Part shown: one piece after another, positions 15,443 to 60,597 of the stretch
How the letters are laid out: the number at the start of each line of letters is the position of its first letter
Numbering within the stretch: the stretch's first letter is position 1
Source of the DNA: an uncultured Candidatus Binatia bacterium
GTDB taxonomy: Bacteria > Desulfobacterota > Binatia > HRBIN30 > CADEER01
DNA: 64,000 nt
NCBI GenBank assembly: GCA_965216585.1
Contig: CBDCGC010000002.1
Span: 483,160 to 547,159, forward strand
Direction of reading: 5' to 3'
Notes under the pieces: generated by a model
Databases searched by the model: none
What the model saw: the letters and a program-made list of their open reading frames with translations, nothing else
What the model was told of the DNA's origin: nothing
Translations under genes and position numbers: made by a program

Positions 15443-16252
15443 TCAATCACATTGCAAAGAAAGAGCCTCCTCGATCCACGCCGCGAGTCTGCCTGCAATA
15501 ACCTCGACCCGGACTCCGTGTTCGTTAGAGTTTTCGTCGAACTTGGAAATGGAAACCAGCCAACAGCGCGTGGCCCAACGGAATTCCGTGTAGCGGTGCG
15601 GGCGTGGAAAAAACCGCCTTTCCCACAGCGCGGCCAGGTCGCCACGAAATCCGCGCAACACCTCGGGCGTAGCCTCGGAGCGAATCGCGGCGATCGGGCC
15701 AGTCGCGTCGTTGTATCGACGCATATTGACCTCCGCATGAGCTGAGCGACCCCAATCGCAAGTGAAGGAGTAGCGTCCGTTGGGCAAGTCAGCGGCAAGG
15801 CGCGCTGTTGAGCACGCGGTAGCTGTCGCGCCCAAGAACCGTTGCCACAGCGGATTGTCGAGGTCGGGCGTCGGCATGGAGGTCCGCGTAACCGTAGGCC
15901 AAGGCGTGAGCGTGATAGTCGGCGTGGCCGTTGGTGTCGGCGTTGGGCAACCGTTCAGGGATGCACGGACCGCCGCGATGATCTCAGAGATTGAGATCTT
16001 CCGATCAAAATCGAGATCGCTCGCCGAACACACGGCGTCACTACCGAGTGCGATGCCAATAGTGCGTGTGAGTTCAGCAACGGATACATCTCCGCTTCCG
16101 TTGCAGTCACCTGGACAGGCTGTGAGGGGGTGTGGCGAGAGTCCCAGTGTGACTGCCAACGCGATAAACACTCGGCTCCAACAAAATCGAGACTCACAAC
16201 GCTGCGACATCTTTGATCCCACGATTGCTTGCCTGACCCATGGCAGTGTCAT
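15443..16252 (-). CDS. Secreted protein with N-terminal dockerin-like Ca-binding repeat and a PT linker (hypothetical)
   Basis: Signal-like N-terminus, CPGDCNGSGDVSVAELTRTIGIALG, linker PTPTPTATPTITLTPWPTVTRT, then an unassigned ~150-aa domain. Confidence 0.5.
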   Translation of the reverse strand: MTLPWVRQAIVGSKMSQRCESRFCWSRVFIALAVTLGLSPHPLTACPGDCNGSGDVSVAELTRTIGIALGSDAVCSASDLDFDRKISISEIIAAVRASLNGCPTPTPTATPTITLTPWPTVTRTSMPTPDLDNPLWQRFLGATATACSTARLAADLPNGRYSFTCDWGRSAHAEVNMRRYNDATGPIAAIRSEATPEVLRGFRGDLAALWERRFFPRPHRYTEFRWATRCWLVSISKFDENSNEHGVRVEVIAGRLAAWIEEALSLQCD

Positions 16253-33982: not shown

Positions 33983-34066
33983 TCGCGATTGCTTCGCCGC
34001 GGGCAGAGCTTTTGTGAGCAGAGTTTTTGTGATTGACGTGATTCGGCTTCACCCGTACCGTGTCGC

Positions 34067-41440: not shown

Positions 41441-41443
41441 GGC

Positions 41444-43444
<2,001 letters not shown>

Positions 43445-43495
43445 AGCGCGAACCGCGCCGTCGTTCGATGGCGGGCGCTGCAAAACGATCGCAGA

Positions 43496-45979
43496 ATGGT
43501 GCAGGGTGAGCGGGTGACACGTATTCGCGGTACCGTCTTCCTCTTCTGCTCCGGCCTGGTCACCCTCGTCTACGAGGTTCTGTGGCTGCGCCAGCTCGGT
43601 CATCTCTTCGGCGTCAGCGCCCACGCGACGGCGACCTGCCTGGCCGTCTTCTTCTCCGGTATGGCGCTCGGCCAGGCGATCGCGGCGCGCCGTTGCGCCG
43701 CGCTGGCGTCGCCGCTGCGCACCTACGGGCTGCTCGAAATCGCCGCCGCAGCGGCGGCCTTGCTGGCGCTCTACTTGCCCGACATCTACCGCGCTCTCTA
43801 CGTCCTGCCGGCCGGCGACACCGGTTTCGGCGCCCACGCCACCCGCATCGCTCTGGCGGCCGTCGTCTTGCTGCCGCCGGCGGCGCTGCTCGGTGCGACC
43901 TTGCCGGTGATGGTGGAAGCGGAGACCCGCCACCTCGGCAACGCCCGCTTGCGCGCCACCGCGCTCTACTTCGCCAACACCGCCGGTGGCGTCGCCGGCG
44001 CTTGCCTGGCCGCCTTCTGGCTGGTGCCGGCGCTCGGCTACTACGCCTCCTACCTGGTCGCCGTCATCGCCGGTGCGTCGATCGGCGCCGCCGCCCTGGC
44101 CAGCGCCGGGCAGGCGCCGGCGGCCAAGCCAGTTGGCGCGGCACTGGCGCCGCCGCCGGCATCCCTGCGCTTGTCCGCCGTCGCCTTCGTCTCCGGCGCC
44201 CTCGCCCTGGCGATGGAGGTGATCTGGACGCGCATGCTGGCGCAGGTACTGCACAACTCGGTCTTCTCCTTCGCCGCCGTGCTCGCCGTGTTGCTGCTGG
44301 CTCTGAGCCTCGGCGCCGGCATCGTTCACCTGGCGCTGCGGCGCTGGCCGGCACCGCCGGCCGGCATCCTCGCCGGCCTCTTCGCCGCCGCCGCCGTCGC
44401 CTGCGCCGCCTCGGCGCTGGTCTTTCAGGCGCAGACCGACGGCCTGGCCTATCTGGGTGGCGACGCCGACTGGGCGTCGTACATGGTCGACGTCTTCAGC
44501 CTTGCCGCCGCCGTGATGTTGGTGCCGGGAGCGTTGCTCGGCGCCATCTTGCCGTACGCCGTGGCGCTGCTGGCGGGCGGCGACGCCATGCCCGGCCTGC
44601 GCGTCGGCCGCCTGATCGCCAGCAACACCGCCGGCTCGGTGATCGGCTCGCTGCTCGCCGGCTTCGCACTCCTGCCGGCATTGGACCTGTGGCCCGCCTT
44701 GCTCGCCGTCGCCGCTCTCTACGCCATCGGCGCCGCGCTGTTCACACCGCGACCGGCCGGCGTCGCCGCCGCCGTCGTCGCTCTCTTCCTCCTCTTTGTT
44801 CCGCTCGACCCGCGCGGTCTGCGCCGCGTCGACTTCGACCCGCACGGTGAGACGGTTCTCGAAGTCGTCGACTCGGCGGCCGGCACGGTTGCCGTCGTCC
44901 AGCGCGGCGACGTCGTCGCCCTGCGGCTCAACAACAGCTACACCGTCGGCACCAACGCCAACATCGTCAACGACCGGCGCAAGGCCGATCTACCCCTTCT
45001 CCTGCACCGGCGACCGCGCTCGGTCTTCTTCCTCGGCATGGGTGCCGGCATCACCGCGGCGGCCGCCCTCGACCACCCGCTGAGCAGCATCACGACTTGC
45101 GAGCTGGTACCGGAGATTGCCCGTCTCGCCGCTAAATATCTGCCCGAACAAAGCGGGCGACTGAGCAGCGATCCGCGCTCGCGCGTCGTCGCCGGCGACG
45201 GCCGCCACTATCTGGCGCGCAGCCGCGAGCGCTTCGACGTCATCATCGCCGACCTCTTCGTTCCCTGGCACAGCGGCGCCGGCGCTCTCTACTCGATCGA
45301 GCACTTCGCCAACGTCCGCCAGCGGCTCGGCGACGGCGGCCTCTTCGCCCAGTGGTTGCCGCTCTACCAGATGTCGCGGCAGGAGTTGGAGATCATCGCC
45401 CGTACCATGCTCGAGGTCTTCCCGCGCGTCACCCTGTGGCGCGGCGACCTGCTGCCGCGCTCGCCGGCCATCGCCCTGATCGGCCATGCCGGCGACCAGC
45501 CCCTCGATCTCCGCGACGTCCGCCGCAACGTCCGCCGCCGCATCGGCGAGCACGGCGCCGACGCCGCCGTCACCGACGCCCTGGCGCTGCTCTTCTACGC
45601 CGGCAACCTCAGCCAGGCGCGCCAGCTCTTCGCCGCCGCACCGATCAACAGCGACGATCGCCCGATCATCGAGCACGGCGCGCCGATCACCCAACGGCGC
45701 GTCAAAGCCGGGCAGGGCGCCTGGCTGACCTCGCTCGAGCTGCTGCGCTTCTACGCCGAGCTCGCCGCCGCCGTGCCGCCCGAGCGCGACGCCTTCCTAC
45801 ACAATCTCGACCATCGTCAGATCGAGTATCCGAAAGCGGGGAGGGACCTCTACGCAGCCTCCGTTCACCGCGACACCGGCGATTTTCGCCAGGCCGAGAT
45901 TGCGCTGGAGGCCTTTCGCCAGCGCGTGCCTGCGGAAGTGGTCGAGATCTTTGCCCAGCGAATCCCGTCGATAAAATAG
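43496..45979 (+). CDS. Fused multi-pass membrane domain / spermidine-synthase-like (PABS) protein with C-terminal extension
   Basis: 827 aa. N-terminal ~12 TM helices, then PABS-like core (TCELVPEIARLA...FDVIIADLFVPW) and an ~200-aa C-terminal helical region. Confidence 0.65.
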   Translation: MVQGERVTRIRGTVFLFCSGLVTLVYEVLWLRQLGHLFGVSAHATATCLAVFFSGMALGQAIAARRCAALASPLRTYGLLEIAAAAAALLALYLPDIYRALYVLPAGDTGFGAHATRIALAAVVLLPPAALLGATLPVMVEAETRHLGNARLRATALYFANTAGGVAGACLAAFWLVPALGYYASYLVAVIAGASIGAAALASAGQAPAAKPVGAALAPPPASLRLSAVAFVSGALALAMEVIWTRMLAQVLHNSVFSFAAVLAVLLLALSLGAGIVHLALRRWPAPPAGILAGLFAAAAVACAASALVFQAQTDGLAYLGGDADWASYMVDVFSLAAAVMLVPGALLGAILPYAVALLAGGDAMPGLRVGRLIASNTAGSVIGSLLAGFALLPALDLWPALLAVAALYAIGAALFTPRPAGVAAAVVALFLLFVPLDPRGLRRVDFDPHGETVLEVVDSAAGTVAVVQRGDVVALRLNNSYTVGTNANIVNDRRKADLPLLLHRRPRSVFFLGMGAGITAAAALDHPLSSITTCELVPEIARLAAKYLPEQSGRLSSDPRSRVVAGDGRHYLARSRERFDVIIADLFVPWHSGAGALYSIEHFANVRQRLGDGGLFAQWLPLYQMSRQELEIIARTMLEVFPRVTLWRGDLLPRSPAIALIGHAGDQPLDLRDVRRNVRRRIGEHGADAAVTDALALLFYAGNLSQARQLFAAAPINSDDRPIIEHGAPITQRRVKAGQGAWLTSLELLRFYAELAAAVPPERDAFLHNLDHRQIEYPKAGRDLYAASVHRDTGDFRQAEIALEAFRQRVPAEVVEIFAQRIPSIK

Positions 45980-46216
45980 CACATTGTTTTGTTCAAATGG
46001 TGAGCACTTAGCCCGATAGGGTCCATCATATGACTTGTCCGCAGCTCAACGTTTCCATTGACACTACGCGCCCGACGGGTTCTAAATGGGGAACGTAATC
46101 AAGAAGAGTAGACTGGTCGCGAGCGGTGTATCTCGCACCGGTGTACTGGGGAATCGATGGGGAACTCGATGATGATCAAGGTTTGTAGACCACCGCGCCC
46201 GGCTGCCCGCAAAACC

Positions 46217-48391
46217 ATGGCGTACAAGGCTTTGCTTGCTACATCGCTGTGGACGCTCAGCCTTCTCGGCGAGCCGCTGCTGGCCCACCCGGTGAGCGGG
46301 AATCTGGCGAGCAACTGTCGCATCGTGGCGACCAACTCGAGTATCAGCGTCTATTTGGACGTCGACAACACCACAGAACAGCAAGCCAAGAACCTCACCG
46401 CGGGCCTGCTCGATGGAACTAATATCGGCGACGCCTCGGTTTTCATCAACGTCACTCCAGGTCGACAGACCATCTTGCCCGGCAAGCGCAAGACCTTTCG
46501 CTGGCGTGGCGAGATTTTCGGCAACGGATTTCTCGATCTGACCGTCAGTGTCACCGGCACCTGGGACGACGGGGATCCGGCGACGACGGGTTTGGTGAAC
46601 TGCCCGCGACTGACGGTCGGCGATCCGGCCAGCCTGACGCCGCCGCCGACCAACACGGAGGCGATCCAGCCGACCTTCGGCTCGCAGCCGACGGCGACAC
46701 CGAGTCGCCGCGACCGGCGCGACACGCCGGTGCCGGTCACCCGCGCACCGACCAACACGCGGCGGCCGACGCGCACACCGATTCCGCCGCGACCGACGCG
46801 CACGCGCATCCCGACCAGCACGCGGCGGCCGCCGAGCACACCGATCGAACGCGATACTCCTGGTGACAACCGGCCGACGCGCACTCCCGACATCGGCGGT
46901 GAGCCGACACCGGAACGCCGCGTTCGACCGACCCGCACACCGATCGTCGGCCGCGCGACGCGCACGCCGATTGGCGGGAGGGCGACCCGTACACCGGTGC
47001 CGCAGCGGCCGACCCGCACGCCGATCCAGCTGCGGCCGACGCGCACGCCGCGCGGCGCCAACGTGCTGCCGACCGTGCCGCGCGAAGGGCAGGTTCCGGC
47101 CGAGGTGGTCGGCCGTCTGACCGCCAACTGCAGCCTGCGCCAGACCAACGATCAGATTGCCGTTCGCATGGTCGTGCAAAACACCACCGCCGTCATGGTC
47201 ACCGATCTCGCCGCCAGCTTTCTCGACCTGACGCCGGAGGGCGGTGCGCTCTTCTTCGACCCGACCGGGCCGAGTCCGCGTTCGTACGGCATCTTCGCAC
47301 CGGGCGACAGCGTCGTCTTCGAGTGGGGCGGCCGTATGAACGACGTCGGCGTCATCGGTTTCGCAGCATCCGTCGCCGGTACGTCGCCGGGCGGCAACCC
47401 GGTCATCAGCGGACTCATCGACTGCGGTTTTGGCTCGGGGCCGAACGGCTCCTTCGACAGCTCGCTGTTCACCGGTTCGTGTAGCATCCGCACCGGCCGC
47501 GGCGGCGCCGTCACGCTGCTCATCAACAACCGCAGCGGCGAGCCGATGTCCGAAATCGATCCGCGCTTGATCGACACCTCGTCGACCGGCACGGCGCAGG
47601 TCAATAGCCTGCGCGGTCCGGCGCCGCGGCGCCTGCGCCGGCTCGCCGGCGGTCAAACCCAGGAGTTTCTCTGGGAAGCCGATGTCCTCGGCAGCGGCAA
47701 CGTGAGCATGACGTTCCAGGCCGATGGCACGGTCGAGAGCGGTGACCGCATCAGCACGCCGACGATCACCTGCTCGACCGAGCTGGCGGCCACCGGCGGC
47801 TTGCCCGATCTCTCTGTCGACGAGCTCGATCAGCGCGGCTCCTGGGTCGTCGAAGAGCAGTTCTTCGGCCCCGGTCACTGCGCTCTCTTCGAAGGCTGTG
47901 TCGGCGGCAGCGGGGTGCGCCGGCTGCTCAAGTTCAACACGACGACACCCAACCACGGCCCCGGCGACCTCTTCCTCGGCGATCCGACCAACAATCCGGA
48001 GTTCATCTTCTCCGAGTGCCACCAGCACTTCCACTTCGAGGATTACGCCATCTATCGCCTGCTCGACATGAACGGCAATCAGGTGGCGCAGGGGCACAAG
48101 CAGGCCTTCTGCCTGGTCGACCTGTGGCGCCCGCCGGGCTCCAACGGTGCCCGCAACCCGGGCTTCCCCGACTGCGGTTTTCAGGGCATCAGCGCCGGCT
48201 GGGCCGACGTCTACCACCGCGATCTGGACTGCCAGTGGATCGACATCACCAACGTCCCGGACGGCCGCTACATCCTCGAGGTCCACATCAACCCGGCCCG
48301 GGTGGTGCAGGAATCGAACTACGCGAACAACATCGCGCGCAACGAGGTGTGCATCGGCATCCCAGAGGACGACGGCTGTGCGCGATTCTGA
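46217..48391 (+). CDS. Secreted lysyl oxidase (LOX) family protein: signal peptide, three Cys-bracketed ~110-aa domains, PTRTP-rich linker, C-terminal LOX catalytic domain
   Basis: C-terminal ~170 aa: CHQHFH (48016-48033), GHKQAFCLVD (Lys 48097-48099), VYHRDLDCQWIDITNV (Tyr 48212-48214), ILEVHINP...ESNYANNIARN. These align with animal LOX WEWHSCHQHYH / GHKASFCLED / TYGADIDCQWIDITDV / ILKVSVNP...ESDYTNNVVRC. Start taken at MAYKALLATSLWTLSLL (signal peptide). Confidence 0.8.
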   Translation: MAYKALLATSLWTLSLLGEPLLAHPVSGNLASNCRIVATNSSISVYLDVDNTTEQQAKNLTAGLLDGTNIGDASVFINVTPGRQTILPGKRKTFRWRGEIFGNGFLDLTVSVTGTWDDGDPATTGLVNCPRLTVGDPASLTPPPTNTEAIQPTFGSQPTATPSRRDRRDTPVPVTRAPTNTRRPTRTPIPPRPTRTRIPTSTRRPPSTPIERDTPGDNRPTRTPDIGGEPTPERRVRPTRTPIVGRATRTPIGGRATRTPVPQRPTRTPIQLRPTRTPRGANVLPTVPREGQVPAEVVGRLTANCSLRQTNDQIAVRMVVQNTTAVMVTDLAASFLDLTPEGGALFFDPTGPSPRSYGIFAPGDSVVFEWGGRMNDVGVIGFAASVAGTSPGGNPVISGLIDCGFGSGPNGSFDSSLFTGSCSIRTGRGGAVTLLINNRSGEPMSEIDPRLIDTSSTGTAQVNSLRGPAPRRLRRLAGGQTQEFLWEADVLGSGNVSMTFQADGTVESGDRISTPTITCSTELAATGGLPDLSVDELDQRGSWVVEEQFFGPGHCALFEGCVGGSGVRRLLKFNTTTPNHGPGDLFLGDPTNNPEFIFSECHQHFHFEDYAIYRLLDMNGNQVAQGHKQAFCLVDLWRPPGSNGARNPGFPDCGFQGISAGWADVYHRDLDCQWIDITNVPDGRYILEVHINPARVVQESNYANNIARNEVCIGIPEDDGCARF

Positions 48392-48568
48392 GAAAATACA
48401 CAAATCCGCAGAATTCGGGAGAAAGTTCTTGACTGCGGGAGTGAAAATTGAGTAGTTTGCGACCATCGTTCTATAGTATCGGAATTGGGGGACTAGAGAT
48501 CTTGCGAAAAACTGCTGACATTTTCGAAACTTACGGGAATTCAGCGGCGATTTGCAGGTTCCTAGATC

Positions 48569-48576
48569 AAGGAGGA
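48569..48576 (+). promoter_or_regulatory. Shine-Dalgarno AAGGAGGA, 8 nt upstream of the ATG at 48585
   Basis: Strong consensus RBS within a 190-bp lower-GC intergenic region. Confidence 0.6.
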
Positions 48577-48584
48577 CAGCTCAT

Positions 48585-50105
48585 ATGACGAAACTGCGAT
48601 TGGCTCAGGTCACGCTTTTGAGCGTGGCCATCGCGGTATTCACCGTGGGGAGTGCGGGGGCGCAAGCAGTCCGCACGCGGAAACCCACCAAGACACCACG
48701 TCCGACTCGCACGCAGATCGTAGATCAGGCGAGGACGCGCAAGCCGACCAAGACGTCGCGGCCTACCCGCACGCAAGTGATCGACCAGGCGCGCACCCGC
48801 AAGCCGACCAAGACCTCGCGGCCGACTCGCACGCAGATCGTCAAAGATCTGCGCACGCGCAAGCCGACCAAGACCTCGCGGCCGACTCGCACGCCGATCG
48901 TCAAAGATCTGCGCACCCGCAAGCCGACCAAGACCTCGCGGCCGACCCGTACGCCGATCGTCAAAGATCTGCGCACGCGCAAGCCGACCAAGACCTCGCG
49001 GCCAACTCGTACGCCGATCATCAAGGACGTGCGCACGCGCAAGCCAACCAAGACCTCGCGGCCGACCCGTACGCCGCTGAGTGTCGAGGTGAGGACGCGC
49101 AAGCCGACCAAGACGCAACGGCCGACTCGCACGCCGATTCTCAAAGAGGTGAGGACGCGCAAGCCGACCAAGACCTCGCGGCCGACCCGCACGCCGATCA
49201 GCTTGGATGTACGCACGCGCAAGCCGACCAAGACACAGCGGCCGACCCGTACGCCGATCGTCAAAGATGTGCGCACGCGCAAGCCGACCAAGACGCAGCG
49301 GCCGACTCGTACGCCGATCATCAAAGACGTGCGCACGCGCAAGCCGACCAAGACGATGCGTCCGACTCGTACGCCGATCTCAAACGAGATCCGCACGCGC
49401 AAGCCGACCAAGACCTTGCGGCCGACCCGTACGCCGATTCTCAAAGAGGTGAGGACGCGCAAGCCGACCAAGACCTTGCGGCCGACCCGTACGCCGGTCT
49501 CGAACGAGATTCGCACACGCAAGCCGACCAAGACACTGCGGCCGACTCGTACGCCTTTCATCAAGAACGAGAGAACGCGCAAGCCGACCAAGACCCTGCG
49601 GCCGACTCGTACGCCAGTTTCGAACGAAGCCCGCACGCGCAAGCCGACCAAGACCCTGCGGCCGACCCGTACGCCTGCACCTCTCGAGGCCCGCACGCGC
49701 AAACCGACCAAGACCCTGCGGCCGACTCGCACGCCGGTTCCCGAGGAAGCGCCTGAGGCGTTCGATCCTAGCGACGTGACTGCTCGGTGCTATGCCAGCA
49801 ACAAGGGTGGTCCCGACGGCAAGAAGGATCTCGTCCGCATCCTGATGCAGGTGTCAAACCGCTCTGGCGCGGCCGTCCGAGTTAGCGCCGGTGGAATCGA
49901 CATCAGTGGCTCTGGCAACTATGAGCCAGTTACTGGCGCGGCAGGGAATTCAAAACCCGTCAGAAGCTCGGTGGTCCTCTCTTGGACAATTCGAGTTCGC
50001 GGAACGCTCAGCGTGACGGCTACTGCGAATGCATCGGGCCCGAATGGCGAGCAGATTCCGTTGTCAGCCGACTGCGGGAGTGTGACAGGAGCACCTGCTC
50101 TCTAA
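48585..50105 (+). CDS. Secreted Lys/Arg/Thr/Pro-rich tandem-repeat protein: 18 x 20-aa repeats RTRKPTKTxRPTRTPIxKDV plus a C-terminal Cys-bracketed ~110-aa domain
   Basis: Signal peptide MTKLRLAQVTLLSVAIAVFTVGSAGAQA. Repeats have perfect 60-nt periodicity. C-terminal domain resembles the Cys-bracketed domains of the upstream LOX protein. Confidence 0.75.
   Translation: MTKLRLAQVTLLSVAIAVFTVGSAGAQAVRTRKPTKTPRPTRTQIVDQARTRKPTKTSRPTRTQVIDQARTRKPTKTSRPTRTQIVKDLRTRKPTKTSRPTRTPIVKDLRTRKPTKTSRPTRTPIVKDLRTRKPTKTSRPTRTPIIKDVRTRKPTKTSRPTRTPLSVEVRTRKPTKTQRPTRTPILKEVRTRKPTKTSRPTRTPISLDVRTRKPTKTQRPTRTPIVKDVRTRKPTKTQRPTRTPIIKDVRTRKPTKTMRPTRTPISNEIRTRKPTKTLRPTRTPILKEVRTRKPTKTLRPTRTPVSNEIRTRKPTKTLRPTRTPFIKNERTRKPTKTLRPTRTPVSNEARTRKPTKTLRPTRTPAPLEARTRKPTKTLRPTRTPVPEEAPEAFDPSDVTARCYASNKGGPDGKKDLVRILMQVSNRSGAAVRVSAGGIDISGSGNYEPVTGAAGNSKPVRSSVVLSWTIRVRGTLSVTATANASGPNGEQIPLSADCGSVTGAPAL
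48669..49748 (+). repeat. 18 tandem copies of a 60-bp coding repeat
   Basis: Unit approx cgcacgcgcaagccgaccaagacctcgcggccgac(c/t)cg(c/t)acgccgatcgtcaaagatctg, with third-position and C-terminal codon variation. Confidence 0.9.
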
Positions 50106-50143
50106 AGCGGACTGTTCGAGCTGCCTTCCTTGAGAAGGGTGAA

Positions 50144-50178
50144 AGGGTCAGGCCTTCCGGGTCTGGCCCTTTCTTTTT
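50144..50178 (+). terminator. Putative intrinsic terminator after the repeat-protein gene
   Basis: agggtcaggcc-ttccg-ggtctggccct forms an 11-bp stem (2 G-U pairs) with a 5-nt loop, followed by TTCTTTTT. Confidence 0.45.
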
Positions 50179-50284
50179 GTGGCAGCAGTCGTTCAGAGCA
50201 CGGGCGGGCTTTGTCGACGCCTTCGCTTCTCTTTGTTTCACGCCTTTGTTATCTTCATCGTCAAACTCCAGGCGGGAGCACTCG

Positions 50285-51781
50285 ATGCGCGTACGAATTC
50301 TCGGGCTTTACTCTCTAATTGCGTTTCTCCTGCTGGCGGCGAGCGCGGTGGCGCAGACGCCCAGCGTGACGCCCACCCCGGGGGGCGACTGTTGCTCGAT
50401 TCACCCCGGGCCGAGCTGCGACATTCCGGCTTGTGCGGCCTGTGTCTGCGAAGACCAGGAAGAGCCTCTGTGCTGTGTCGACGGCAGTCCGGAGGGCTGG
50501 GATCGCATCTGTCTCGCCTTTGCCGAGAGTGACGACTGTGCCGAGGTCTGTTTGTGCGGCGAGCCGCCGACGCCGACGCCGACGCCGGGTGGTGACTGCT
50601 GCTTGCCGCACGCCGGTAGCCGCTGCGACGACGAAGCGTGTACGACCTGCGTCTGCGACCGCGACAGCAACTGCTGCACGGGACCTTGGGACGCGTTCTG
50701 CGTCGAGTCGGCGCGTACGGTCGACGAGTGCGCGGGCGAGTGCTCGGATTGTATGCCGCTGCCGACCATCCCGCCGCTGGCGACGCCGACGCCCGGACCT
50801 TGTTGCGAAGGCCGCGATCTCAATCCCGGTTGCGATGAGAGTATGTGCGAGAGCTGCGTCTGCGCCGTCGACGCAAACTGCTGCCTCGACACCTGGGACG
50901 AGCTCTGCGCCGTCATCGCGGTCGAGGAGTGCGCCATCGATTGCGTCTGCGTCGAGGACGGCGACTGCTGTAGCGGACACGACGGTTTTGGTTGCAATGA
51001 CCGGCGTTGTCAGGAGTGTGTCATCGCCCTCGATCCGGAATGTGGCGAGCAGTGGGACGACGACTGCGCATCGGAGGCGCGGCTCGAGTGCGCGCTCGAC
51101 TGCACCTGTGGCGATTGCTGCGCCGAGAATCCGGACGAGGTACCGGGCTGCGGCGTCAAACCCTGCCAAGACTGCGTTTGCGAGATCGACGAGGAGTGCT
51201 GCACGGAGCTGTGGGATGCGCAATGCGACTCGATCGCTCGCGATGAATGCTCGCTCGACTGTCCGTGCTTGAACTGCTGCGAGGAACAGGTGGTTCCGGG
51301 CTGCGGTGAGAAGGAGTGTCAGACCTGTGTCTGCGCCCTCGATGCGAATTGCTGCGATGAAGTATGGGACGGCATCTGTGCCGCCCGCGCCGTCGAAGAG
51401 TGCGACCGCCGCTGCGAGTGCGAGGCCGGCAGCAACTGTTGTATCGCCCGGCCGACCGAGACGGGTTGCGACGAAAGCGCCTGCGAAGCGTGTGTCTGCG
51501 GCGTCGACGATTTCTGCTGCACCGACCTGTGGGATTCCACCTGCTCGGACGAGATCACCGTCAACGAGTGCGCCGCCGAATGCTCATGTGATCCTGGGAG
51601 CTGTGTCGGCGATTGCGATGGCGACGGCGAAGTCTCGATCGGTTCGCTCATCCGCTGCGTCGGCGTCGCCCTCGGCAACTCTCCGGTCAGCGAGTGCCGC
51701 GCCTGCGATGCCGATGGAGACGGCGAGGTCTCGATCGGCGAGCTCATCCAGGCCGTCGGCAACGCCCTCGAGGGCTGCTGA
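50285..51781 (+). CDS. Secreted Cys-rich repeat protein: 7 x ~52-aa 10-Cys repeats plus C-terminal dockerin-like pair
   Basis: Signal peptide MRVRILGLYSLIAFLLLAASAVA. Repeat pattern CC-x6-8-GC-x3-C-x2-CVC-x4-CC-x3-WD-x2-C-x8-EC-x3-C-x-C. PTPTPG linkers. C-terminal CVGDCDGDGEVSIGSLIRCVGVALG...CDADGDGEVSIGELIQAVGNALEGC. Confidence 0.7.
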   Translation: MRVRILGLYSLIAFLLLAASAVAQTPSVTPTPGGDCCSIHPGPSCDIPACAACVCEDQEEPLCCVDGSPEGWDRICLAFAESDDCAEVCLCGEPPTPTPTPGGDCCLPHAGSRCDDEACTTCVCDRDSNCCTGPWDAFCVESARTVDECAGECSDCMPLPTIPPLATPTPGPCCEGRDLNPGCDESMCESCVCAVDANCCLDTWDELCAVIAVEECAIDCVCVEDGDCCSGHDGFGCNDRRCQECVIALDPECGEQWDDDCASEARLECALDCTCGDCCAENPDEVPGCGVKPCQDCVCEIDEECCTELWDAQCDSIARDECSLDCPCLNCCEEQVVPGCGEKECQTCVCALDANCCDEVWDGICAARAVEECDRRCECEAGSNCCIARPTETGCDESACEACVCGVDDFCCTDLWDSTCSDEITVNECAAECSCDPGSCVGDCDGDGEVSIGSLIRCVGVALGNSPVSECRACDADGDGEVSIGELIQAVGNALEGC

Positions 51782-51826
51782 GACTCGCTGCGCTCGTAGG
51801 CTCAGGCGCCGGCTGAGGCGTAGGCA

Positions 51827-52174
51827 AAGGGTGGTGTCGCGCCGCGAGACGTTCGAGGGTTCACCGCCGCAATCCAGATAGCCGGGTTAGCCGATCCCAG
51901 CCCGGTTCACCGGGCTTTCTTCCCTCAGCCGTGGGCTTCAGCCCTCGGCTGTTTGCACGCACACATTCACTCGTTTCCCACCCGCCGCCGAGCGCTGAAG
52001 CGCCCGGCTCAAATCGTCAAAGCCCCTGCGGGGCTGAAACGAAGGGTGGTGTCGCGCCGTCGGGCCGCGAGACGCTCGAGGTTTCACCGCCGCAATCCAG
52101 ATAGCCGGTAGCCGATCCCAGCCCGGTTCACCGGGCTTTCTTCCCTCAGCCGTGGGCTTCAGCCCTCGGCTGTT
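51827..52174. repeat. Two ~127-132-bp direct repeats (51827-51953, 52043-52174) in a convergent intergenic region
   Basis: aagggtggtgtcgcgccg...ttcaccgccgcaatccagatagccgg..cccggttcaccgggctttcttccctcagccgtgggcttcagccctcggctgttt. Contains the cccggttcaccggg palindrome. Confidence 0.7.
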
Positions 52175-52175
52175 T

Positions 52176-52485
52176 GTCCGTACACGTCTCCGCCCGCCGC
52201 TGCGAATGCGGAGGCTCCGCTCTATTGGCCGGCGGTTGTCCGTACACGTCTCCGCCCGCCGCTGCGAATGCGGAGGCTCCGCTCTATTGGCCGGCGGTCG
52301 TCCGTACACGTCTCCGCCCGCCGCTGCGAATGCGCAGGCGCCGCTCTATTGGCCGGCGGTTGCTCGCACACATCTCCGCCGGCCGCTACGAGGACGGAGA
52401 CCCCGCGCTCTGGGCCGGCGTTCGCGCACGTCTCCGCCCCCGGCTCCGTGTGCTAGGCCGCGCGCTATTGGCCGGTGGCGGCGTC
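52176..52485. repeat. ~5 tandem copies of a 62-bp hairpin-containing repeat
   Basis: gtccgtacacgtctccgcccgccgctgcgaatgcggaggctccgctctattggccggcggtt, with stem CTCCGC...GCGGAG. The last copy abuts or overlaps the 3' end of the minus-strand gene ending at 52465. Confidence 0.7.
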
Positions 52486-53451
52486 GAGTGCTTCGGGGGA
52501 GGGGACTCGGCCCTCGCGCCGCATCTTGAAGATCAGATCGGCAACGCGCGTCGCCACCTCGAGCTTGGCCGCTAGATCTACGTTGCGCTGGTGCTCGGCG
52601 TCGAGGGTCGACTGTAGGGCGAGGTTCTCGGTTTCGAGATCGCGGACGCGATCGGTCAGCCCACCGCCCTCCGCCCCTTGCAGGTTTGCGATGGTCGAGC
52701 GCAGCTCGGCTTCGCGCTTGCGACTGGCCTCGAGATCCTGCTGGATGGCCGCCATCAAGCGGCGCTGGTCTTCCTGCAGCTCGGCGACCTCGACCGGCAC
52801 CGCCGCCTCGACGACCGCGGGCTGTTGATCGAGGCGCACCTTGAGCTCGGCGTAGCGCTGCTCGAGATCGTCGCGCTCGCCGCGCTCGCGCTGGAGTTGC
52901 TGCCGCAGTTGCTCGATTTCTCCGCGCGCCTCCTCCAGGGCGGTCGCCGTCGCGGCGTCGAAGGGTCCGCTCGAGGTCTCCTCGCGCATGCGCGCCAACT
53001 GATCCTCGGCGGCGACGCGCCGGCTTCGTTCACTCGCCAGCTCGGTCTCGAGACGGGCGATCTGCGGCACCGGGTCGGCTTGGCCCGATTGGGCAGCGAG
53101 GGCCGCCTCGGTCGCGGCGCGAGCCTCGGACAGCTCGGCGCGCAGCGACTCGTTTTCGTTGCGCGCCTGAGAGAGAGCTGTGCTGAGCTCGCGCTCGCGT
53201 GCCTGCAGAGCGCTGACGGCCTCGGCCGCACCAGCGCCGGCGCCGCCACTGGACAGTTGTGTCTCGAGCTCGCGAATACGGCGTTGGGCGCGCGAAAGTT
53301 GCATGCGGATCGAGCGCACCCGGCCGCGGCCCATGCCACCTCTCAACACTGGCCCCGAGCCCGCCGACCGCTCGGCCACCGTGCAGGCGGACGTGAGGGT
53401 CAGAGGAATCAGCAGAAGCCAGGGTGTGAAAAACGCTCCACGTGTCTTCAT
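52465..53451 (-). CDS. Coiled-coil lipoprotein (hypothetical)
   Basis: Start MKTRGAFFTPWLLLIPLTLTSAC (lipobox). Remainder is heptad-rich (ELETQLS..., LRAELSEARAATEAAL...). N-terminal extension of the ORF runs across the REP array and is rejected. Confidence 0.55.
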   Translation of the reverse strand: MKTRGAFFTPWLLLIPLTLTSACTVAERSAGSGPVLRGGMGRGRVRSIRMQLSRAQRRIRELETQLSSGGAGAGAAEAVSALQARERELSTALSQARNENESLRAELSEARAATEAALAAQSGQADPVPQIARLETELASERSRRVAAEDQLARMREETSSGPFDAATATALEEARGEIEQLRQQLQRERGERDDLEQRYAELKVRLDQQPAVVEAAVPVEVAELQEDQRRLMAAIQQDLEASRKREAELRSTIANLQGAEGGGLTDRVRDLETENLALQSTLDAEHQRNVDLAAKLEVATRVADLIFKMRREGRVPSPEALDAATGQ

Positions 53452-53517
53452 CAGCGTCAACCCCAACGTTTTCCGGGAGGGTAACGGCTTCGACCTGGCT
53501 TGTCCACGGGAAAGAAT

Positions 53518-53648
53518 GGGAGGGCGAGTCGCCTGACGAGCCGCCGGTCCCCCGACCCCAGCGGGAGGGCGAGTCGCCTGACGAGCCGCCGGTCCCCCGA
53601 CCCCAGCGGGAGGGCGAGTCGCCTGACGAGCCGCCGGTCCCCCAGAGC
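53518..53648. repeat. REP array, 3 x 46 bp, upstream of the RAYT gene
   Basis: gggagggcgagtcgcctgacgagccgccggtcccccgaccccagcg x2 plus a truncated third copy. Core GGCGAGTCGCC is near-palindromic. Confidence 0.8.
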
Positions 53649-53736
53649 CGTCGACCACCCCGGAACCATCACAACATCGAATGTCAACTCCCCATGCCGC
53701 CAGCGCAATCCGACCGGCACGCGTACCCTGACCCAC

Positions 53737-54207
53737 ATGCCGCATTCATCCCGCAAACGTCCCGCGGCATGGAACCCGCCGGAAAGCCTTACCGACTACA
53801 TCGTGTTCCTGACGGTATGCACGAAGCACCGCAAAGCCGCACTTGCGGACACCAAAGTTCACGCTGAGCTCGTGCGAATTTGGATGGACCAGCCATCTTG
53901 GCTGGTGGGCCGGTACGTCCTCATGCCCGATCACGTGCACTTGTTCTGCTCGCCCTCGATCTCGACAACGGTGCCGCTACCCGGTTGGGTTCGGTACTGG
54001 AAATCGCACCTGGCGCGTTCCGGTGTTTGCGGAACGCAGGTATGGCAGTCGGGATTCTGGGATACGCGGATACGCAGCGACGAGAGTTTCGAGGCGAAGT
54101 GGAGCTACGTTAGAGACAATCCGGTTCGCGCCGGGCTTTGCCGAAATGCAGACGAGTGGCCTTTTCAGGGGGAGATTTATCCTCTGAAGCGGCGAGAGGC
54201 GGATTGA
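53737..54207 (+). CDS. REP-associated tyrosine transposase (RAYT; IS200/IS605 TnpA-like HUH enzyme)
   Basis: 156 aa. HUH motif LMPDHVHLF and C-terminal catalytic Tyr context WSYVRDNPVRAGL. Flanked on both sides by REP arrays sharing a 24-nt core in inverted orientation. Confidence 0.7.
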   Translation: MPHSSRKRPAAWNPPESLTDYIVFLTVCTKHRKAALADTKVHAELVRIWMDQPSWLVGRYVLMPDHVHLFCSPSISTTVPLPGWVRYWKSHLARSGVCGTQVWQSGFWDTRIRSDESFEAKWSYVRDNPVRAGLCRNADEWPFQGEIYPLKRREAD

Positions 54208-54237: not shown

Positions 54238-54780
54238 TTGGGGTGTGTTCGGGTCGCCGGGTGGCTCGTCAGGCGACTCGCCCTCCCAAGACAAGAATGA
54301 CGGGGGTGTGTTCGGGTCGCCGGGTGGCTCGTCAGGCGACTCGCCCTCCCAAGACAAGAATGACGGGGGTGTGTTCGGGTCGCCGGGTGGCTCGTCTGGC
54401 GACTCGCCCTCCCAAGACAAGAATGACGGGGGTGTGTTCGGGTCGCCGGGTGGCTCGTCAGGCGACTCGCCCTCCCAAGACAAGAATGACGGGGGTTGTT
54501 CGGGTCGCCGGGTGGCTCGTCAGGCGACTCGCCCTCCCAAGACAAGAATGACGGGGGTTGTTTGGGTCGCCGGGTGGCTCGTCAGGCGACTCGCCCTCCC
54601 AAGACAAGAATGACGGGGGTTGTTTGGGTCGCCGGGTGGCTCGTCAGGCGACTCGTCCTCCCAAGACAAGAATGACGGGGGTTGTTCGGGTCGCCGGGTG
54701 GCTCGTCAGGCGACTCGCCCTCCCAAGACAAGAATGACGGGGGTTGTTCGGGTCGCCGGGTGGCTCGTCAGGCGACTCGC
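54238..54780. repeat. REP array, ~9 x 62 bp, downstream of the RAYT gene
   Basis: gggggtgtgttcgggtcgccgggtggctcgtcaggcgactcgccctcccaagacaagaatgac repeated head-to-tail. Contains ggctcgtcaggcgactcgccctcc, the reverse complement of the upstream array core. No unique spacers. Confidence 0.85.
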
Positions 54781-58727: not shown

Positions 58728-59426
58728 GTGGCCAAGGTGCTCGGCACATCGCCGGGCAGAGGGGGAAGGAGCTCCATGGCGAAGGATCGCATGGACCGCA
58801 AGGAACTGCGCCAACCGGATGAGTTCGTCACGGCGACCACCGGAGCGCTCGAGTGGGCTCGGAAACACGCCAACACGGTGCTCGCCGTGGCCGGCGGGCT
58901 GTTGGCCATCTTGCTGGGAATCGGTTTCTACAATTCGCAACAGGCGGCGCGCCTGCACGACTCCAACAGCGATCTGAGTAGTGGCTTGGCGTCGTTTCGC
59001 AGCGAAGACTTTGCCGTCGCTTCGACTCAGCTCGACCAGGTGGCGACGCAGTGGAAGAGCGAAGCGGTCGGACCGCTGGCCGGCGTCATGGCCGCCAACA
59101 GTCGGCTGCGCGCCGGCGATGCGGACGGCGCCATCGTGGCGCTGGGCGCGCTCGACGACGCCGGCTTGCCGCACTACATCCGCCAGCAGCGCGCGCTGGT
59201 CTGGGCGAGCGCGCTCGAAGCCAAGGGCGATTGGGCCGCGGCGGCGGCGAAGTACGCCGAGGCGGCGGCGGTCGAAGGCCCGTACAGCGGCGAAGCCCTG
59301 GTCGGTGAAGCGCGCAGCCGGGCGCGCAACGGCGACACCGATGCGGCGGCGAAGCTCTATCGCCGTATCGTCGAGGAATACCCGGATCGCCCGGACAGCA
59401 AGCTGTTGAGCGCCAAGCTCGGCTGA
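58728..59426 (+). CDS. Membrane-anchored TPR-like protein (YfgM-like, hypothetical)
   Basis: Single TM (VLAVAGGLLAILLGIGFY) then an Ala-rich helical repeat region. Start may be at 58776. Confidence 0.4.
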   Translation: MAKVLGTSPGRGGRSSMAKDRMDRKELRQPDEFVTATTGALEWARKHANTVLAVAGGLLAILLGIGFYNSQQAARLHDSNSDLSSGLASFRSEDFAVASTQLDQVATQWKSEAVGPLAGVMAANSRLRAGDADGAIVALGALDDAGLPHYIRQQRALVWASALEAKGDWAAAAAKYAEAAAVEGPYSGEALVGEARSRARNGDTDAAAKLYRRIVEEYPDRPDSKLLSAKLG

Positions 59427-59442
59427 TGCGGGAATTTCCTCG

Positions 59443-60597
59443 ATGTCCGATAAGATTGATTATGTAAAGTTAGAAATGGACTCCGCTGTGGTTGGCTCCC
59501 TTCCCCTGGTGTCGCGGAATCTAAAGACTTTTTGGCGGATTTCCGCCCTCTGCCTGGTCATTGCCGGCGCTCCCGCGAATCTGCCTGCCGAACAGGCCTG
59601 TACGGGTGATGCCGATCGCGACGGCGCCGTGCGTATCGCCGAGTTGATCCAGGCGGTCGGCAACGCGCTCGAGGGCTGCGAAGAGATTCCGGGTACCTGC
59701 AACGGCGACGCGAACTGCGACGGCGTCGTCGCCATCAACGAGCTCATTCTGGCGGTCGGCTACGCGCTCGACGGCTGTCCGCTGGCGCGCGCCGTCAGCG
59801 TCGCCTGGCTCGAGCAGGCGCTCGACCGCACCGACGTGCAGATCATCGACGCCCGTGTCGGCGGCTTCGCGGGTGGCCACATCCCCGGCGCCCTGCCCCT
59901 GTCACCGTATATGTTGGCGGCGCCTTCCGGCGGTGTCGATTTTCAGATCCTCGAAGCCGAGAGCGCCGCCATGGTGCTGAGCGAGGTCGGCCTGCGCAGC
60001 GATGCCATCGCCGTCGTCTACGGCGCCGCACCCGAGTTCGACCCGGCGCGCGTCGTCTGGGCGCTCGAATACCTCGGCCACGCCGACGTGCGCTACCTCG
60101 ACGGTGGTTTCGCGGCCTGGCAGGCGGCGGGCGCGGATGTCGCCGCTGGCGAGCCGGTGCCCGCGCCCGCTTCGTCCTATCCGGTGGCGATACGCGAGCA
60201 GCTTCGCGTCACCAGCGACTGGGTACTCGAGCAGCTCGGCGATGCACCGTACGAGAACCCGGCCATTCAGGTCGTCGACGCCCGCTCGCCGGCCGAGTAC
60301 GCGATGGGAATCATCCCCACCGCCGTGCACCGGCAGTGGACGATCAATCTCGACGGCGGACTCCTGCTGCCGCGCGCCGACCTCGACGCGCTCTACGCCG
60401 ATCTCGACAAGGCGCGCACGACGGTCGTCTACTGCCTCGCCGGCTGGCGCGCGTCGTTCGCCTGGCTGACGCTCGCCGGTCTCGGTTTCGAAGACGTCAG
60501 AGTCTACGACGGCTCGTGGCTGGAATGGGGCAACGGCGAGTTCCCGGTTCACGTTCCACCGACGGTCGGCAACGTTGCCGTATCGGCGGACTTCTGA
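59443..60597 (+). CDS. Tandem-rhodanese thiosulfate sulfurtransferase with N-terminal dockerin-like repeat pair
   Basis: N-terminal CTGDADRDGAVRIAELIQAVGNALEGC...CNGDANCDGVVAINELILAVGYALDGC. Two rhodanese domains, the second with active-site VVYCLAGWRAS. Confidence 0.7.
   Translation: MSDKIDYVKLEMDSAVVGSLPLVSRNLKTFWRISALCLVIAGAPANLPAEQACTGDADRDGAVRIAELIQAVGNALEGCEEIPGTCNGDANCDGVVAINELILAVGYALDGCPLARAVSVAWLEQALDRTDVQIIDARVGGFAGGHIPGALPLSPYMLAAPSGGVDFQILEAESAAMVLSEVGLRSDAIAVVYGAAPEFDPARVVWALEYLGHADVRYLDGGFAAWQAAGADVAAGEPVPAPASSYPVAIREQLRVTSDWVLEQLGDAPYENPAIQVVDARSPAEYAMGIIPTAVHRQWTINLDGGLLLPRADLDALYADLDKARTTVVYCLAGWRASFAWLTLAGLGFEDVRVYDGSWLEWGNGEFPVHVPPTVGNVAVSADF

What the first reader, a model, noticed from the sequence alone, without database searches (positions are those of the whole stretch)
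50285..51781. Secreted protein with seven ~52-aa, 10-cysteine repeats of an unrecognised type, ending in a Cys-flanked dockerin-like pair
Each repeat follows CC-x6-8-GC-x3-C-x2-CVC-x4-CC-x3-WD-x2-C-x8-EC-x3-C-x-C. This gives ~70 Cys in 480 residues, with invariant CVC, CC and WD positions. I do not recognise the repeat as EGF, SRCR, DUF4215/myxo-disulfide or TNFR type. It sits immediately after the LOX/substrate genes with its own upstream region. Possibilities are a copper-handling chaperone for LOX maturation, a disulfide-knotted structural partner, or a scaffold (it carries the same dockerin-like C-terminus as three other proteins in the window).
Basis: partly seen in the sequence, partly recalled or inferred. 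Interest (0 to 1): 0.65.

Follow-up and report, generated by a model that had tools for sequence, protein, structure and literature searches.

The report
Acidic disulfide-rich repeat protein beside LOX
This is a real secreted protein from an uncultured Binatia bacterium, made of seven small cysteine-rich modules of a widespread but uncharacterised family (Pfam DUF8252) plus a calcium-binding anchor-like tail; it looks like a structural surface or matrix protein, not a copper chaperone, and it lies next to lysyl oxidase only in this one lineage.

Summary
The gene is real (window 50285-51781, +, 498 aa). It has a Sec-type signal peptide, seven ~50-aa Cys-rich modules and a Cys-clamped dockerin/EF-hand-like pair. 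A profile of it finds 3,536 protein clusters, with up to 33 copies per protein, and most relatives carry precomputed hits to Pfam PF26780 (DUF8252). That family has no known function, no solved structure and no literature. AlphaFold2 predicts a three-helix mini-domain (pLDDT 95) with no Foldseek match in the PDB. Cysteines are lost only in pairs and the counts are even, which points to about six disulfides per module rather than metal-thiolate sites. Elsewhere the module is fused to adhesin, hydrolase or surface-anchor domains. Lysyl oxidase (LOX), an 18 x 20-aa Lys-rich polycation (net +105) and this polyanion (net -86) lie in that order in every Binatia ortholog locus with enough sequence. 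The housekeeping genes around them are equally syntenic, a terminator-like hairpin precedes this gene, and no LOX was found near family members outside the ortholog group. Best reading: a disulfide-locked acidic structural or matrix protein, possibly a partner in a LOX-crosslinked matrix. Interest is moderate.

The parts
50285..51781 (+). Coding sequence of the Cys-rich protein (498 aa plus stop). It has 88 Cys, a net charge of -86 and pI ~4.05.
   Evidence: 15 orthologs with all repeat Cys invariant
50285..50356 (+). Sec-type signal peptide (aa 1-24, MRVR / hydrophobic core / AVA|Q).
   Evidence: read from the sequence; orthologs have equivalent N-termini; no predictor was run
50390..50557 (+). 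Module 1 (aa 36-91, 12 Cys), followed by a Pro/Thr linker.
   Evidence: AF2 pLDDT 75-93
50597..50752 (+). Module 2 (aa 105-156, 12 Cys), followed by a Pro/Thr linker.
50801..50950 (+). Module 3 (aa 173-222, 12 Cys).
50966..51109 (+). Module 4 (aa 228-275, 10 Cys). CVC is replaced by CVI and CC by a single C, so one predicted disulfide is missing. This holds in all 15 orthologs.
51116..51268 (+). Module 5 (aa 278-328, 12 Cys). It contains invariant Lys292.
51275..51421 (+). Module 6 (aa 331-379, 12 Cys). It contains Lys343, conserved in at least 90% of orthologs.
51437..51589 (+). Module 7 (aa 385-435, 12 Cys). This module was modelled alone at pLDDT 95.4.
51602..51778 (+). Cys-clamped dockerin/EF-hand-like pair (aa 440-498) with two Ca-loop plus helix units. 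C440, C444, C471 and C498 are invariant. C458 and C474 are seen only in the window protein and P0004 among the 15 aligned sequences.
50141..50173 (+). Terminator-like hairpin (15-bp stem, 8 G-C pairs, T-run) between the stop of the Lys-rich gene and this gene.
48585..50105 (+). Upstream neighbour: a secreted polycationic protein with 18 exact-period 20-aa repeats RTRKPTKTxRPTRTPxxxxx. Net charge is +105 and pI 12, computed on the 517-aa ORF from TTG 48552. It is a candidate LOX substrate.
   Evidence: conserved in orthologous loci
46157..48391 (+). Lysyl oxidase-domain protein (catalytic domain aa 586-730) with N-terminal beta-rich domains and an RPTRTP-type linker.
52465..53745 (-). Convergent downstream neighbour: a coiled-coil protein conserved next to the Cys-rich gene in every ortholog locus that extends downstream (not L004-independent; absent from the truncated L020-type contigs only where sequence ends).

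Best explanation
The gene encodes a Sec-exported, extremely acidic beads-on-a-string protein. It has seven ~50-aa three-helix modules of the DUF8252 type, each locked by six disulfides (five in module 4). The first three modules are separated by Pro/Thr linkers and the last five abut one another. The chain ends in a disulfide-clamped, Ca2+-binding dockerin/EF-hand-like pair.

It has no catalytic or metal-chaperone signature. It most likely acts as a protease- and oxidant-resistant structural or adhesive component of the cell surface or extracellular matrix, held to a partner through the dockerin-like module.

What is shown: the gene, the repeats and the N-terminal signal-like sequence; the family membership by homology; the paired-loss behaviour of the cysteines; the confident helical model with no PDB neighbour; and the gene order.

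What is inferred: the disulfide bonding itself, the extracellular location, and the tethering role of the tail.

A further and weaker inference (about 0.3) is that in this Binatia lineage the polyanion pairs electrostatically with the neighbouring Lys-rich polycation, and that LOX cross-links the assembly.
For: - Constrained gene: every repeat Cys is invariant across 15 orthologs at 54-66% identity.
- Export: a signal-like N-terminus.
- Disulfide signature in 525 distinct repeats from 116 proteins. Match-column Cys counts are even in 518 of 525. Columns 15 and 49 are co-lost in 72 of 72 cases (Fisher p 5e-72). Column 20 is lost only together with column 26 or 27 (22 of 22). The column 20/26-27 rule holds 35 of 35 in a wider set of 1,549 repeats, and 14 of 14 in the independent proteins.
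- All 15 orthologs have an even Cys count after residue 30.
- Fold: the single module models at pLDDT 95.4 and pTM 0.77 as three helices.
- No Pfam or NCBIfam enzyme or metal family matches.
- Family context: 3,536 clusters. Partner domains are extracellular adhesion, hydrolase or anchor types (GBD_T9SS_assoc, FG-GAP, CHRD, LTD, Laminin_G_3, TSP_3, GDSL lipase, SASA, Por_Secre_tail, Dockerin_1).
- 78 of 251 family proteins carry a dockerin-like loop, and in 71 it is C-terminal to the repeats. A Binatia 'choice-of-anchor Q' protein of 2,076 aa ends in the same cassette of five modules, PT linkers and a dockerin-like pair.
- LOX sub-claim: LOX, the Lys-rich protein and the Cys-rich protein are adjacent and co-oriented in all 9 loci with enough upstream DNA, and the Lys-rich gene is upstream in 4 truncated loci.
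- This block stays intact although a spermidine-synthase-like gene is inserted upstream of it in the window, and TANGO2 is inverted in several loci.
- Opposite charges are conserved in most complete loci: about +52 to +71 (+105 in the window) against -55 to -88. Some values come from roughly delimited, frameshifted or gapped ORFs.
Against: - No disulfide was observed directly.
- Cys parity could not be evaluated in the wider family, because variant sub-types shift Cys between alignment columns.
- The function of DUF8252 is unknown everywhere.
- The tail fails the Pfam dockerin and EF-hand cut-offs, and no cohesin-like partner was identified.
- Against the LOX link: the surrounding housekeeping genes (UvrB, TANGO2, MoxR, VWA) are equally syntenic.
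- A terminator-like hairpin separates this gene from the Lys-rich gene.
- Strong acidity is a family-wide property, so the charge complementarity may be coincidental.
- No LOX lies near any family member outside the ortholog group.
Confidence: 0.6

Rival explanations
1. It is a generic DUF8252 surface or stalk protein with no functional tie to LOX. The adjacency would simply be gene order inherited within one Binatia clade.
For: - The whole neighbourhood, including housekeeping genes, is syntenic.
- A separate transcription unit is suggested by the hairpin at 50141-50173.
- 0 LOX hits in 78 other family loci, 29 of them at least 8 kb long.
- No LOX next to the Myxococcota members or next to stand-alone homologs at 31-39% tblastn identity.
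- No LOX fusion among 255 family proteins.
Against: - The three genes stay contiguous and co-oriented in all 9 informative loci, down to 41-45% identity of this protein, despite an upstream insertion and a downstream inversion.
- All three products have signal-like N-termini.
- The net charges are extreme, opposite and mostly conserved.
Confidence: 0.4
2. It is a scaffoldin-like docking platform. The seven modules would be receptors for the dockerin-like modules carried by many secreted Binatia proteins, and the protein's own tail would anchor the assembly.
For: - The architecture (repeated modules plus its own dockerin-like tail) mimics a scaffoldin.
- At least three other proteins in this 64-kb window carry the dockerin-like pair.
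- No other candidate receptor was seen in the window.
Against: - The module is a ~50-aa helical knot, not a cohesin beta-sandwich, and there is no Cohesin hit.
- The same modules occur as C-terminal cassettes on enzyme or adhesin-type proteins and in lineages and proteins without dockerin-like loops (173 of 251).
- No interaction was tested.
Confidence: 0.1
3. It is a copper- or other metal-handling protein, acting as a chaperone or store that supplies Cu to the neighbouring LOX through its thiolates.
For: - It sits two genes downstream of a copper enzyme.
- It is 17.7% Cys.
- One distant family member also contains MopE-type 'putative metal-binding' motifs.
Against: - Cys counts are even and Cys are lost strictly in pairs.
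- The Sec signal peptide implies export as an unfolded chain into an oxidising compartment.
- There is no His/Met-rich motif and no hit to any Cu-chaperone, Csp or metallothionein family at E <= 10.
- The family is not linked to LOX elsewhere.
Confidence: 0.05
4. It is a multivalent binding array for an external polymer or mineral surface, in the manner of a CBM or of an acidic biomineralisation matrix protein.
For: - Trp is invariant and Asp nearly so (96%) in the WD pair, with further conserved Asp at columns 23 and 11-12 and a frequent Phe before the CC.
- Acidity is extreme.
- In other taxa the module is fused to hydrolases and lectin-like domains, as CBMs are.
Against: - There is no similarity to any CBM family.
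- The conserved Trp may simply be the core of a tiny fold.
- No ligand is suggested by the gene context.
Confidence: 0.15

Closest known systems
Pfam PF26780 (DUF8252), an uncharacterised Cys-rich repeat of Myxococcota, Binatia and other environmental bacteria
   Same: Most relatives found with the window protein carry precomputed PF26780 hits. A profile built from the window's seven repeats recovers those proteins' repeats, which share the core CC..GC....C..CVC..D..CC...WD..C...A...C...C.C.
   Different: The model is absent from the local Pfam copy. The window protein's 98% twin and 13 of its 14 other close orthologs have no recorded PF26780 hit, and most recorded hits are 'faint'. The family has no known function, structure or paper. 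The seven-module plus dockerin-like architecture and the LOX adjacency are specific to the Binatia ortholog group.
Type I dockerin (PF00404) and the EF-hand pair
   Same: There are two tandem Ca-loop plus helix segments (DxDxDGxVxxxELI). The best and only PDB fold matches of the whole model are cellulosomal dockerins (TM 0.5-0.66 normalised to the target, rmsd ~3 A). The best PDB sequence matches are calmodulin, calcineurin B and dockerins.
   Different: Scores fall below the Pfam cut-offs (Dockerin_1 12.6 against 22.9 bits; EF-hand_1 19.1 against 25.4). The Foldseek E-values are above 1. The module is clamped by four invariant Cys that classical dockerins lack. No cohesin partner is known. 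In this genome the module also occurs N-terminally.
Granulin/epithelin module (12 Cys, 6 disulfides in ~55 aa) and Myxococcus Cys-rich repeat DUF4215
   Same: These are also small extracellular modules with very high disulfide density, arranged in tandem arrays. The comparison is drawn from general knowledge.
   Different: There is no sequence match. The Cys spacing is different. The predicted fold is three helices, whereas granulin (from general knowledge) is a stack of beta-hairpins.
PSI (plexin-semaphorin-integrin) domain
   Same: The only PDB sequence hit of the module profile is the Sema4D PSI segment, aligned over C-x2-CV-x3-DP-x-C.
   Different: The E-value of 0.62 is not significant. 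Foldseek found no PDB match although PSI structures are in the PDB. This relationship is rejected.
Animal LOX with its elastin and collagen substrates and microfibril scaffold
   Same: A secreted LOX is encoded next to a repetitive Lys-rich secreted protein and a disulfide-rich, Ca-binding-tailed repeat protein. This resembles LOX, tropoelastin and the Cys-rich fibrillin or fibulin scaffold, as an analogy from general knowledge.
   Different: There is no homology between the substrate or scaffold proteins. No cross-linking has been demonstrated. The function of bacterial LOX is unknown (PMC4448552).

Membership tests
Pfam PF26780 / DUF8252 | Match to the Pfam model at its gathering threshold | not testable with these tools
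   The model is not in the local Pfam-A copy. The precomputed table shows '-' for P0001 (98% identical) and for 13 of the other 14 close orthologs; P0006 shows only EF-hand families.
Pfam PF26780 / DUF8252 | Homology of the repeat to repeats of proteins that carry PF26780 hits | tested here: met
   An HMM built from the window's 7 repeats finds 686 repeat instances in 116 of 120 hits, most of them PF26780-annotated. The consensus is shared. PF26780 is the only family common to the Binatia and Myxococcota members.
Dockerin type I (PF00404) | Two tandem ~22-aa Ca-binding loop plus helix segments | tested here: met
   DCDGDGEVSIGSLI (aa 443-456) and DADGDGEVSIGELI (aa 475-488), read. AF2 places helices at 452-462 and 484-496.
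Dockerin type I (PF00404) | Pfam gathering score | tested here: not met
   12.6 bits against a cut-off of 22.9, E 0.16.
Dockerin type I (PF00404) | Fold similarity to solved dockerins | tested here: inconclusive
   The top Foldseek PDB hits are dockerins (TMt 0.5-0.66), but with E 1.2-7.
Dockerin type I (PF00404) | A cohesin partner | not tested
   No cohesin hit among the window proteins scanned. The rest of the genome was not available.
Copper chaperone or storage proteins (Csp, CopC, PCuAC, metallothionein) | Sequence match to a metal-binding family, with free thiolate ligands | tested here: not met
   No such Pfam or NCBIfam hit at E <= 10. Cys behave as pairs.
Named Cys-rich repeats (EGF, granulin, TNFR, SRCR, DUF4215, PSI) | Profile match of the whole protein or of single repeats | tested here: not met
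   No match for the whole protein or for 138 single repeats. The best PDB profile hit has E 0.62. hhalign against PSI gave probability 0.2%.
Scaffoldin (cohesin array) | Repeated cohesin beta-sandwich modules | tested here: not met
   The modules are ~50-aa three-helix units, and there is no Cohesin hit.
LOX-associated gene set (this proposal) | Adjacency to LOX across genomes | tested here: inconclusive
   Adjacent in 9 of 9 informative Binatia ortholog loci. Not adjacent in 0 of 78 other family loci, nor in any of L016, L017, L092, L094 and L095. Confounded by general synteny.

The most novel reading that the evidence does not exclude
Binatia bacteria may build a LOX-cross-linked extracellular matrix from three adjacent genes: a secreted lysyl oxidase; a polycationic protein with a 20-aa period carrying two Lys per repeat (the substrate); and this polyanionic, disulfide-locked, Ca-tail-anchored protein, which condenses the polycation electrostatically and fixes it to the cell. 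This would be a bacterial analogue of the LOX/elastin/microfibril system, and the first natural substrate set for a bacterial LOX.
Probability: 0.2. Interest if true: 0.75.

Novelty: new member of a known kind. Interest (0 to 1): 0.4.

Why it matters
The role of bacterial lysyl oxidases is an open question. The 2015 survey of LOX evolution states that their function in bacteria is unknown and that no cross-linked bacterial substrate has been described (PMC4448552). This locus offers a concrete, testable trio of LOX, a Lys-rich polycation and a Cys-rich polyanion, conserved across a clade of uncultured soil Binatia.

Separately, the module is a confidently modelled mini-fold with about six disulfides in 50 residues. 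It has no neighbour in the PDB and occurs in about 3,500 protein clusters with no assigned function. A structure or a ligand for it would annotate a large set of environmental surface proteins.

Taken alone, however, the finding is one more member of an uncharacterised DUF family.

Tried and rejected
- Copper chaperone or store: rejected on Cys parity, paired loss and the absence of metal-family hits.
- PSI domain: this lead came from the only PDB profile hit (Sema4D, E 0.62).
- Granulin, EGF, TNFR and DUF4215: no hits.
- LOX-DUF8252 fusion proteins: none among 255 family proteins.
- The search for homologous proteins with the single-repeat alignment A2 returned only 2 hits, because the word index is poor for 50-aa queries, and was uninformative.
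It succeeded with the narrower alignment A3.
- I tried to find Binatia loci with UvrB synteny but without the trio. Two lineages with UvrB at 75-76% identity keep the upstream synteny but have entirely different genes downstream. This says nothing about the trio as a gain or loss unit.
- The two conserved lysines (K292, K343) are not weighted as evidence. Lys makes up only about 10% of basic residues genome-wide here (LOX has 8 K and 65 R), so Lys scarcity in this protein is compositional.
- Cys parity in the wider family could not be evaluated, because alignment columns shift between sub-types.
Full report
**1. What is there**

The ORF at window 50285-51781 (+) translates without interruption to 498 aa. 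The longer TTG-initiated ORF from 49982 is not credible. It would run through a terminator-like hairpin at 50141-50173. The ATG at 50285 is preceded by GGGAG and is followed by a textbook Sec signal, MRVR-ILGLYSLIAFLLLAASAVA|Q. All orthologs start at the same place.

The protein has 88 Cys (17.7%), 105 Asp+Glu, 17 Arg and 2 Lys. Its net charge is -86 and its pI about 4.05.

Seven modules lie at aa 36-91, 105-156, 173-222, 228-275, 278-328, 331-379 and 385-435. Module 4 has CVI instead of CVC and a single C instead of CC, giving 10 Cys.

Modules 1-3 are separated by Pro/Thr linkers. Modules 3-7 are nearly contiguous.

Residues ~440-498 hold two DxDxDGxVxIxxLI loop-helix units bracketed by Cys. 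They hit EF-hand_1 (E 9e-4) and Dockerin_1 (E 0.16), both below the Pfam cut-offs.

**2. It is a real, constrained gene from Candidatus Binatia**

A 98%-identical protein and 14 full-length orthologs (54-66% identity in the alignment) exist in metagenome assemblies. Every repeat cysteine, every WD pair and the degenerate state of module 4 are invariant across them.

GTDB genome hits are titled Candidatus Binatia, 'Deltaproteobacteria bacterium' or unclassified MAGs. The window's UvrB is 100% identical to one on a 675-kb public contig, and its close homologs are named Binatia.

**3. The repeat is not an orphan**

Local Pfam-A and NCBIfam find nothing in the repeat region. None of 138 single repeats hits any Pfam family recurrently.

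However, 351 proteins match the whole protein, and most of those beyond the closest orthologs carry precomputed hits to PF26780. The context tool names this family DUF8252. The model is newer than the local Pfam copy.

A profile of 138 diverse single repeats (A2) was searched against 1.84 billion representative proteins. It finds 3,536 proteins at E <= 1e-3 and 1,446 at E <= 1e-10, with up to 33 repeats in one 2,359-aa protein.

Members include Nannocystis pusilla and other Myxococcota. No paper mentions PF26780 or DUF8252.

Formal membership could not be tested. The model is unavailable locally, the closest orthologs have no recorded hit, and most recorded hits are 'faint'. Homology to the PF26780-bearing proteins is clear nonetheless.

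**4. Structure**

AlphaFold2 on the whole protein with 15 orthologs gives pLDDT 73.6. Each module appears as three short helices, and the low pTM of 0.24 is as expected for beads on a string.

Module 7 modelled alone with the 138-repeat alignment gives pLDDT 95.4 and pTM 0.77, with helices at residues 14-23, 26-29 and 34-44.

Foldseek against the PDB finds nothing for the module (0 hits at E <= 10) and nothing in viral models. For the whole model the only hits are cellulosomal dockerins aligned to the tail (TM 0.5-0.66 normalised to the target, E > 1).

Profile searches of PDB sequences give only calmodulin, calcineurin B and dockerin for the tail. For the module they give one non-significant Sema4D PSI hit (E 0.62), which hhalign does not support.

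**5. Disulfides, not thiolates**

I analysed 525 distinct complete repeats from 116 proteins.
- The twelve Cys columns hold an even number of Cys in 518 cases (12 in 409, 10 in 107, 8 in 2).
- Columns 15 and 49 are absent together in 72 of 72 cases (Fisher p 5e-72).
- Column 20 is absent only together with column 26 or 27 (22 of 22).

The second rule holds 35 of 35 in a wider set of 1,549 repeats, and 14 of 14 among the independent proteins. Parity could not be evaluated in that wider set because Cys shift columns between sub-types.

All 15 orthologs have an even Cys count after residue 30. In the tail, the two extra Cys (C458, C474) occur together, and only in the window protein and P0004 among the 15 aligned sequences.

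Together with Sec export, this is the signature of about six disulfides per module (about 44 in the mature protein). It argues against a Cu-thiolate chaperone or store. No metal-binding family matches either.

The caveats are that the repeats are phylogenetically related, so the p-values overstate independence, and that no coordinates were available to read the actual pairings.

**6. What the module does elsewhere**

In other proteins the module is combined with GBD_T9SS_assoc, Dockerin_1, FG-GAP, CHRD, LTD, Laminin_G_3, TSP_3, NIDO, GEVED, PPC, Por_Secre_tail, GDSL lipase and SASA esterase. One giant protein combines it with MopE-type motifs.

78 of 251 family proteins have a dockerin-like loop, and in 71 of them it is C-terminal to the repeats.

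A 2,076-aa Binatia 'choice-of-anchor Q' protein ends with five modules separated by PT linkers plus the same dockerin-like pair. In this phylum, therefore, modules plus tail form a reusable C-terminal cassette, and the window protein is that cassette standing alone.

The family as a whole is strongly acidic.

These features fit a promiscuous extracellular structural, spacer or binding module.

**7. Genomic context and the LOX question**

The genes upstream, in order, are:
- UvrB (41441-43441).
- A spermidine-synthase-like protein (43445-45976).
- A LOX-domain protein (46157-48391; Lysyl_oxidase E 4e-36).
- A secreted protein with 18 exact 20-aa repeats RTRKPTKTxRPTRTPxxxxx (net +105, pI 12).

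Downstream lie a convergent coiled-coil gene, a RAYT-like gene flanked by REP-type arrays, TANGO2, MoxR and VWA_CoxE.

tblastn shows LOX, the Lys-rich protein and the Cys-rich protein adjacent and co-oriented in all nine Binatia loci with enough upstream DNA (L001, 3, 4, 6, 7, 8, 9, 12, 13). The Lys-rich gene lies upstream in the four truncated loci. This holds down to 41-45% identity of the Cys-rich protein.

The opposite charges are largely conserved, at about +52 to +71 against -55 to -88. Some of these ORFs are only roughly delimited, frameshifted or gapped.

The block survives an upstream insertion in the window and inversion of TANGO2 in several loci.

Several points count against a functional link.
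- UvrB, TANGO2, MoxR and VWA are just as syntenic.
- A 15-bp-stem hairpin with a T-run sits between the Lys-rich gene and this gene, and the intergenic gaps are 160-180 bp.
- Outside the ortholog group the link vanishes:
  - 0 LOX hits in 78 other family loci (681 kb in total, 29 loci of at least 8 kb).
  - No LOX beside the Myxococcota members.
  - No LOX beside stand-alone 459-570-aa homologs at 31-39% tblastn identity.
  - No LOX fusion among 255 family proteins.
- More distant Binatia (UvrB 75-76% identical) keep the upstream synteny but have unrelated genes after UvrB. That is uninformative about the trio as a unit.

**8. Verdict**

The protein is best read as a Sec-exported, acidic, disulfide-locked structural or matrix protein. 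It is built from DUF8252-type modules and tethered by a Ca-binding dockerin-like tail (confidence about 0.6).

The copper-chaperone idea is disfavoured (about 0.05). A scaffoldin-like role (about 0.1) and a ligand-binding array (about 0.15) remain untested.

A role as the anionic, anchored partner of the Lys-rich polycation in a LOX-cross-linked matrix is attractive. It would address the unknown function of bacterial LOX (PMC4448552). For now it rests only on lineage-restricted synteny and charge complementarity (about 0.2-0.3).

Novelty: a new member of a catalogued but uncharacterised family. Interest is moderate (0.4).

Noticed in passing
window 48585-50105 (+): A secreted protein with 18 exact-period 20-aa repeats RTRKPTKTxRPTRTPxxxxx (60-bp DNA period, 17.7 copies). 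It has 50 Lys and 83 Arg, net +105 and pI 12, followed by a ~120-aa non-repetitive C-terminal domain. Lys makes up 38% of its basic residues, against about 10% in neighbouring proteins. It lies directly downstream of LOX and is conserved in all Binatia ortholog loci. This makes it a strong candidate for a natural bacterial LOX substrate, and arguably more interesting than the Cys-rich gene.
   Followed up: partly
window 46157-48391 (+): The LOX protein is unusually long (744 aa). It has N-terminal beta-rich domains and an internal RPTRTP-type Arg/Pro/Thr linker. tblastn aligns this linker with the repeats of the downstream Lys-rich protein at about 36% identity, so enzyme and putative substrate share linker chemistry.
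   Followed up: partly
window 15443-16252 (-), 34037-35509 (+), 59410-60597 (+): Three more secreted proteins carry the Cys-flanked dockerin-like pair. It is N-terminal in an unknown 269-aa protein and in a rhodanese, and C-terminal in a 490-aa protein with a Cys-rich membrane-like segment. The module looks like a lineage-wide tag in Binatia whose receptor is unknown.
   Followed up: partly
window 52174-52475, 53518-53643, 54240-54780; gene 53485-54207 (+): REP-like tandem arrays (62 bp x 4; 45 bp x 2.8 at 100% identity; 62 bp x 8.7 at 98%) flank a gene with a weak IS200/Y1 transposase hit (E 7.6e-4), which suggests a RAYT/REP system. This region is absent from the orthologous loci L001 and L003.
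   Followed up: no
window 43445-45976 (+): An 844-aa protein with a spermidine-synthase-like domain (E 4e-15) is inserted between UvrB and LOX. It is not found in any other fetched locus (no tblastn hit), including the orthologous Binatia loci, where UvrB is followed directly by LOX.
   Followed up: no
window 471-4103 (-), 7102-9372 (-): A type I restriction-modification system whose HsdR-like subunit (1,211 aa) carries a C-terminal Schlafen/AlbA_2 domain. It sits with an HsdM methylase near the start of the window.
   Followed up: no
window 50141-50173 (+): A strong terminator-like hairpin (15-bp stem, 8 G-C pairs, T-run) lies just after the Lys-rich gene. The only sigma-70-like promoter match in 45900-53900 (48448-48477) lies just upstream of that gene. 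The three genes therefore may not form one operon.
   Followed up: partly
L095 10001-12484; L096 1-299: In an unrelated genome, a stand-alone DUF8252 repeat protein is followed immediately by a multi-EF-hand protein (L095). In distant Binatia, an 802-aa protein ending in the dockerin-like module precedes Mdh, as in the window. Ca-binding modules seem to recur near this family.
   Followed up: no
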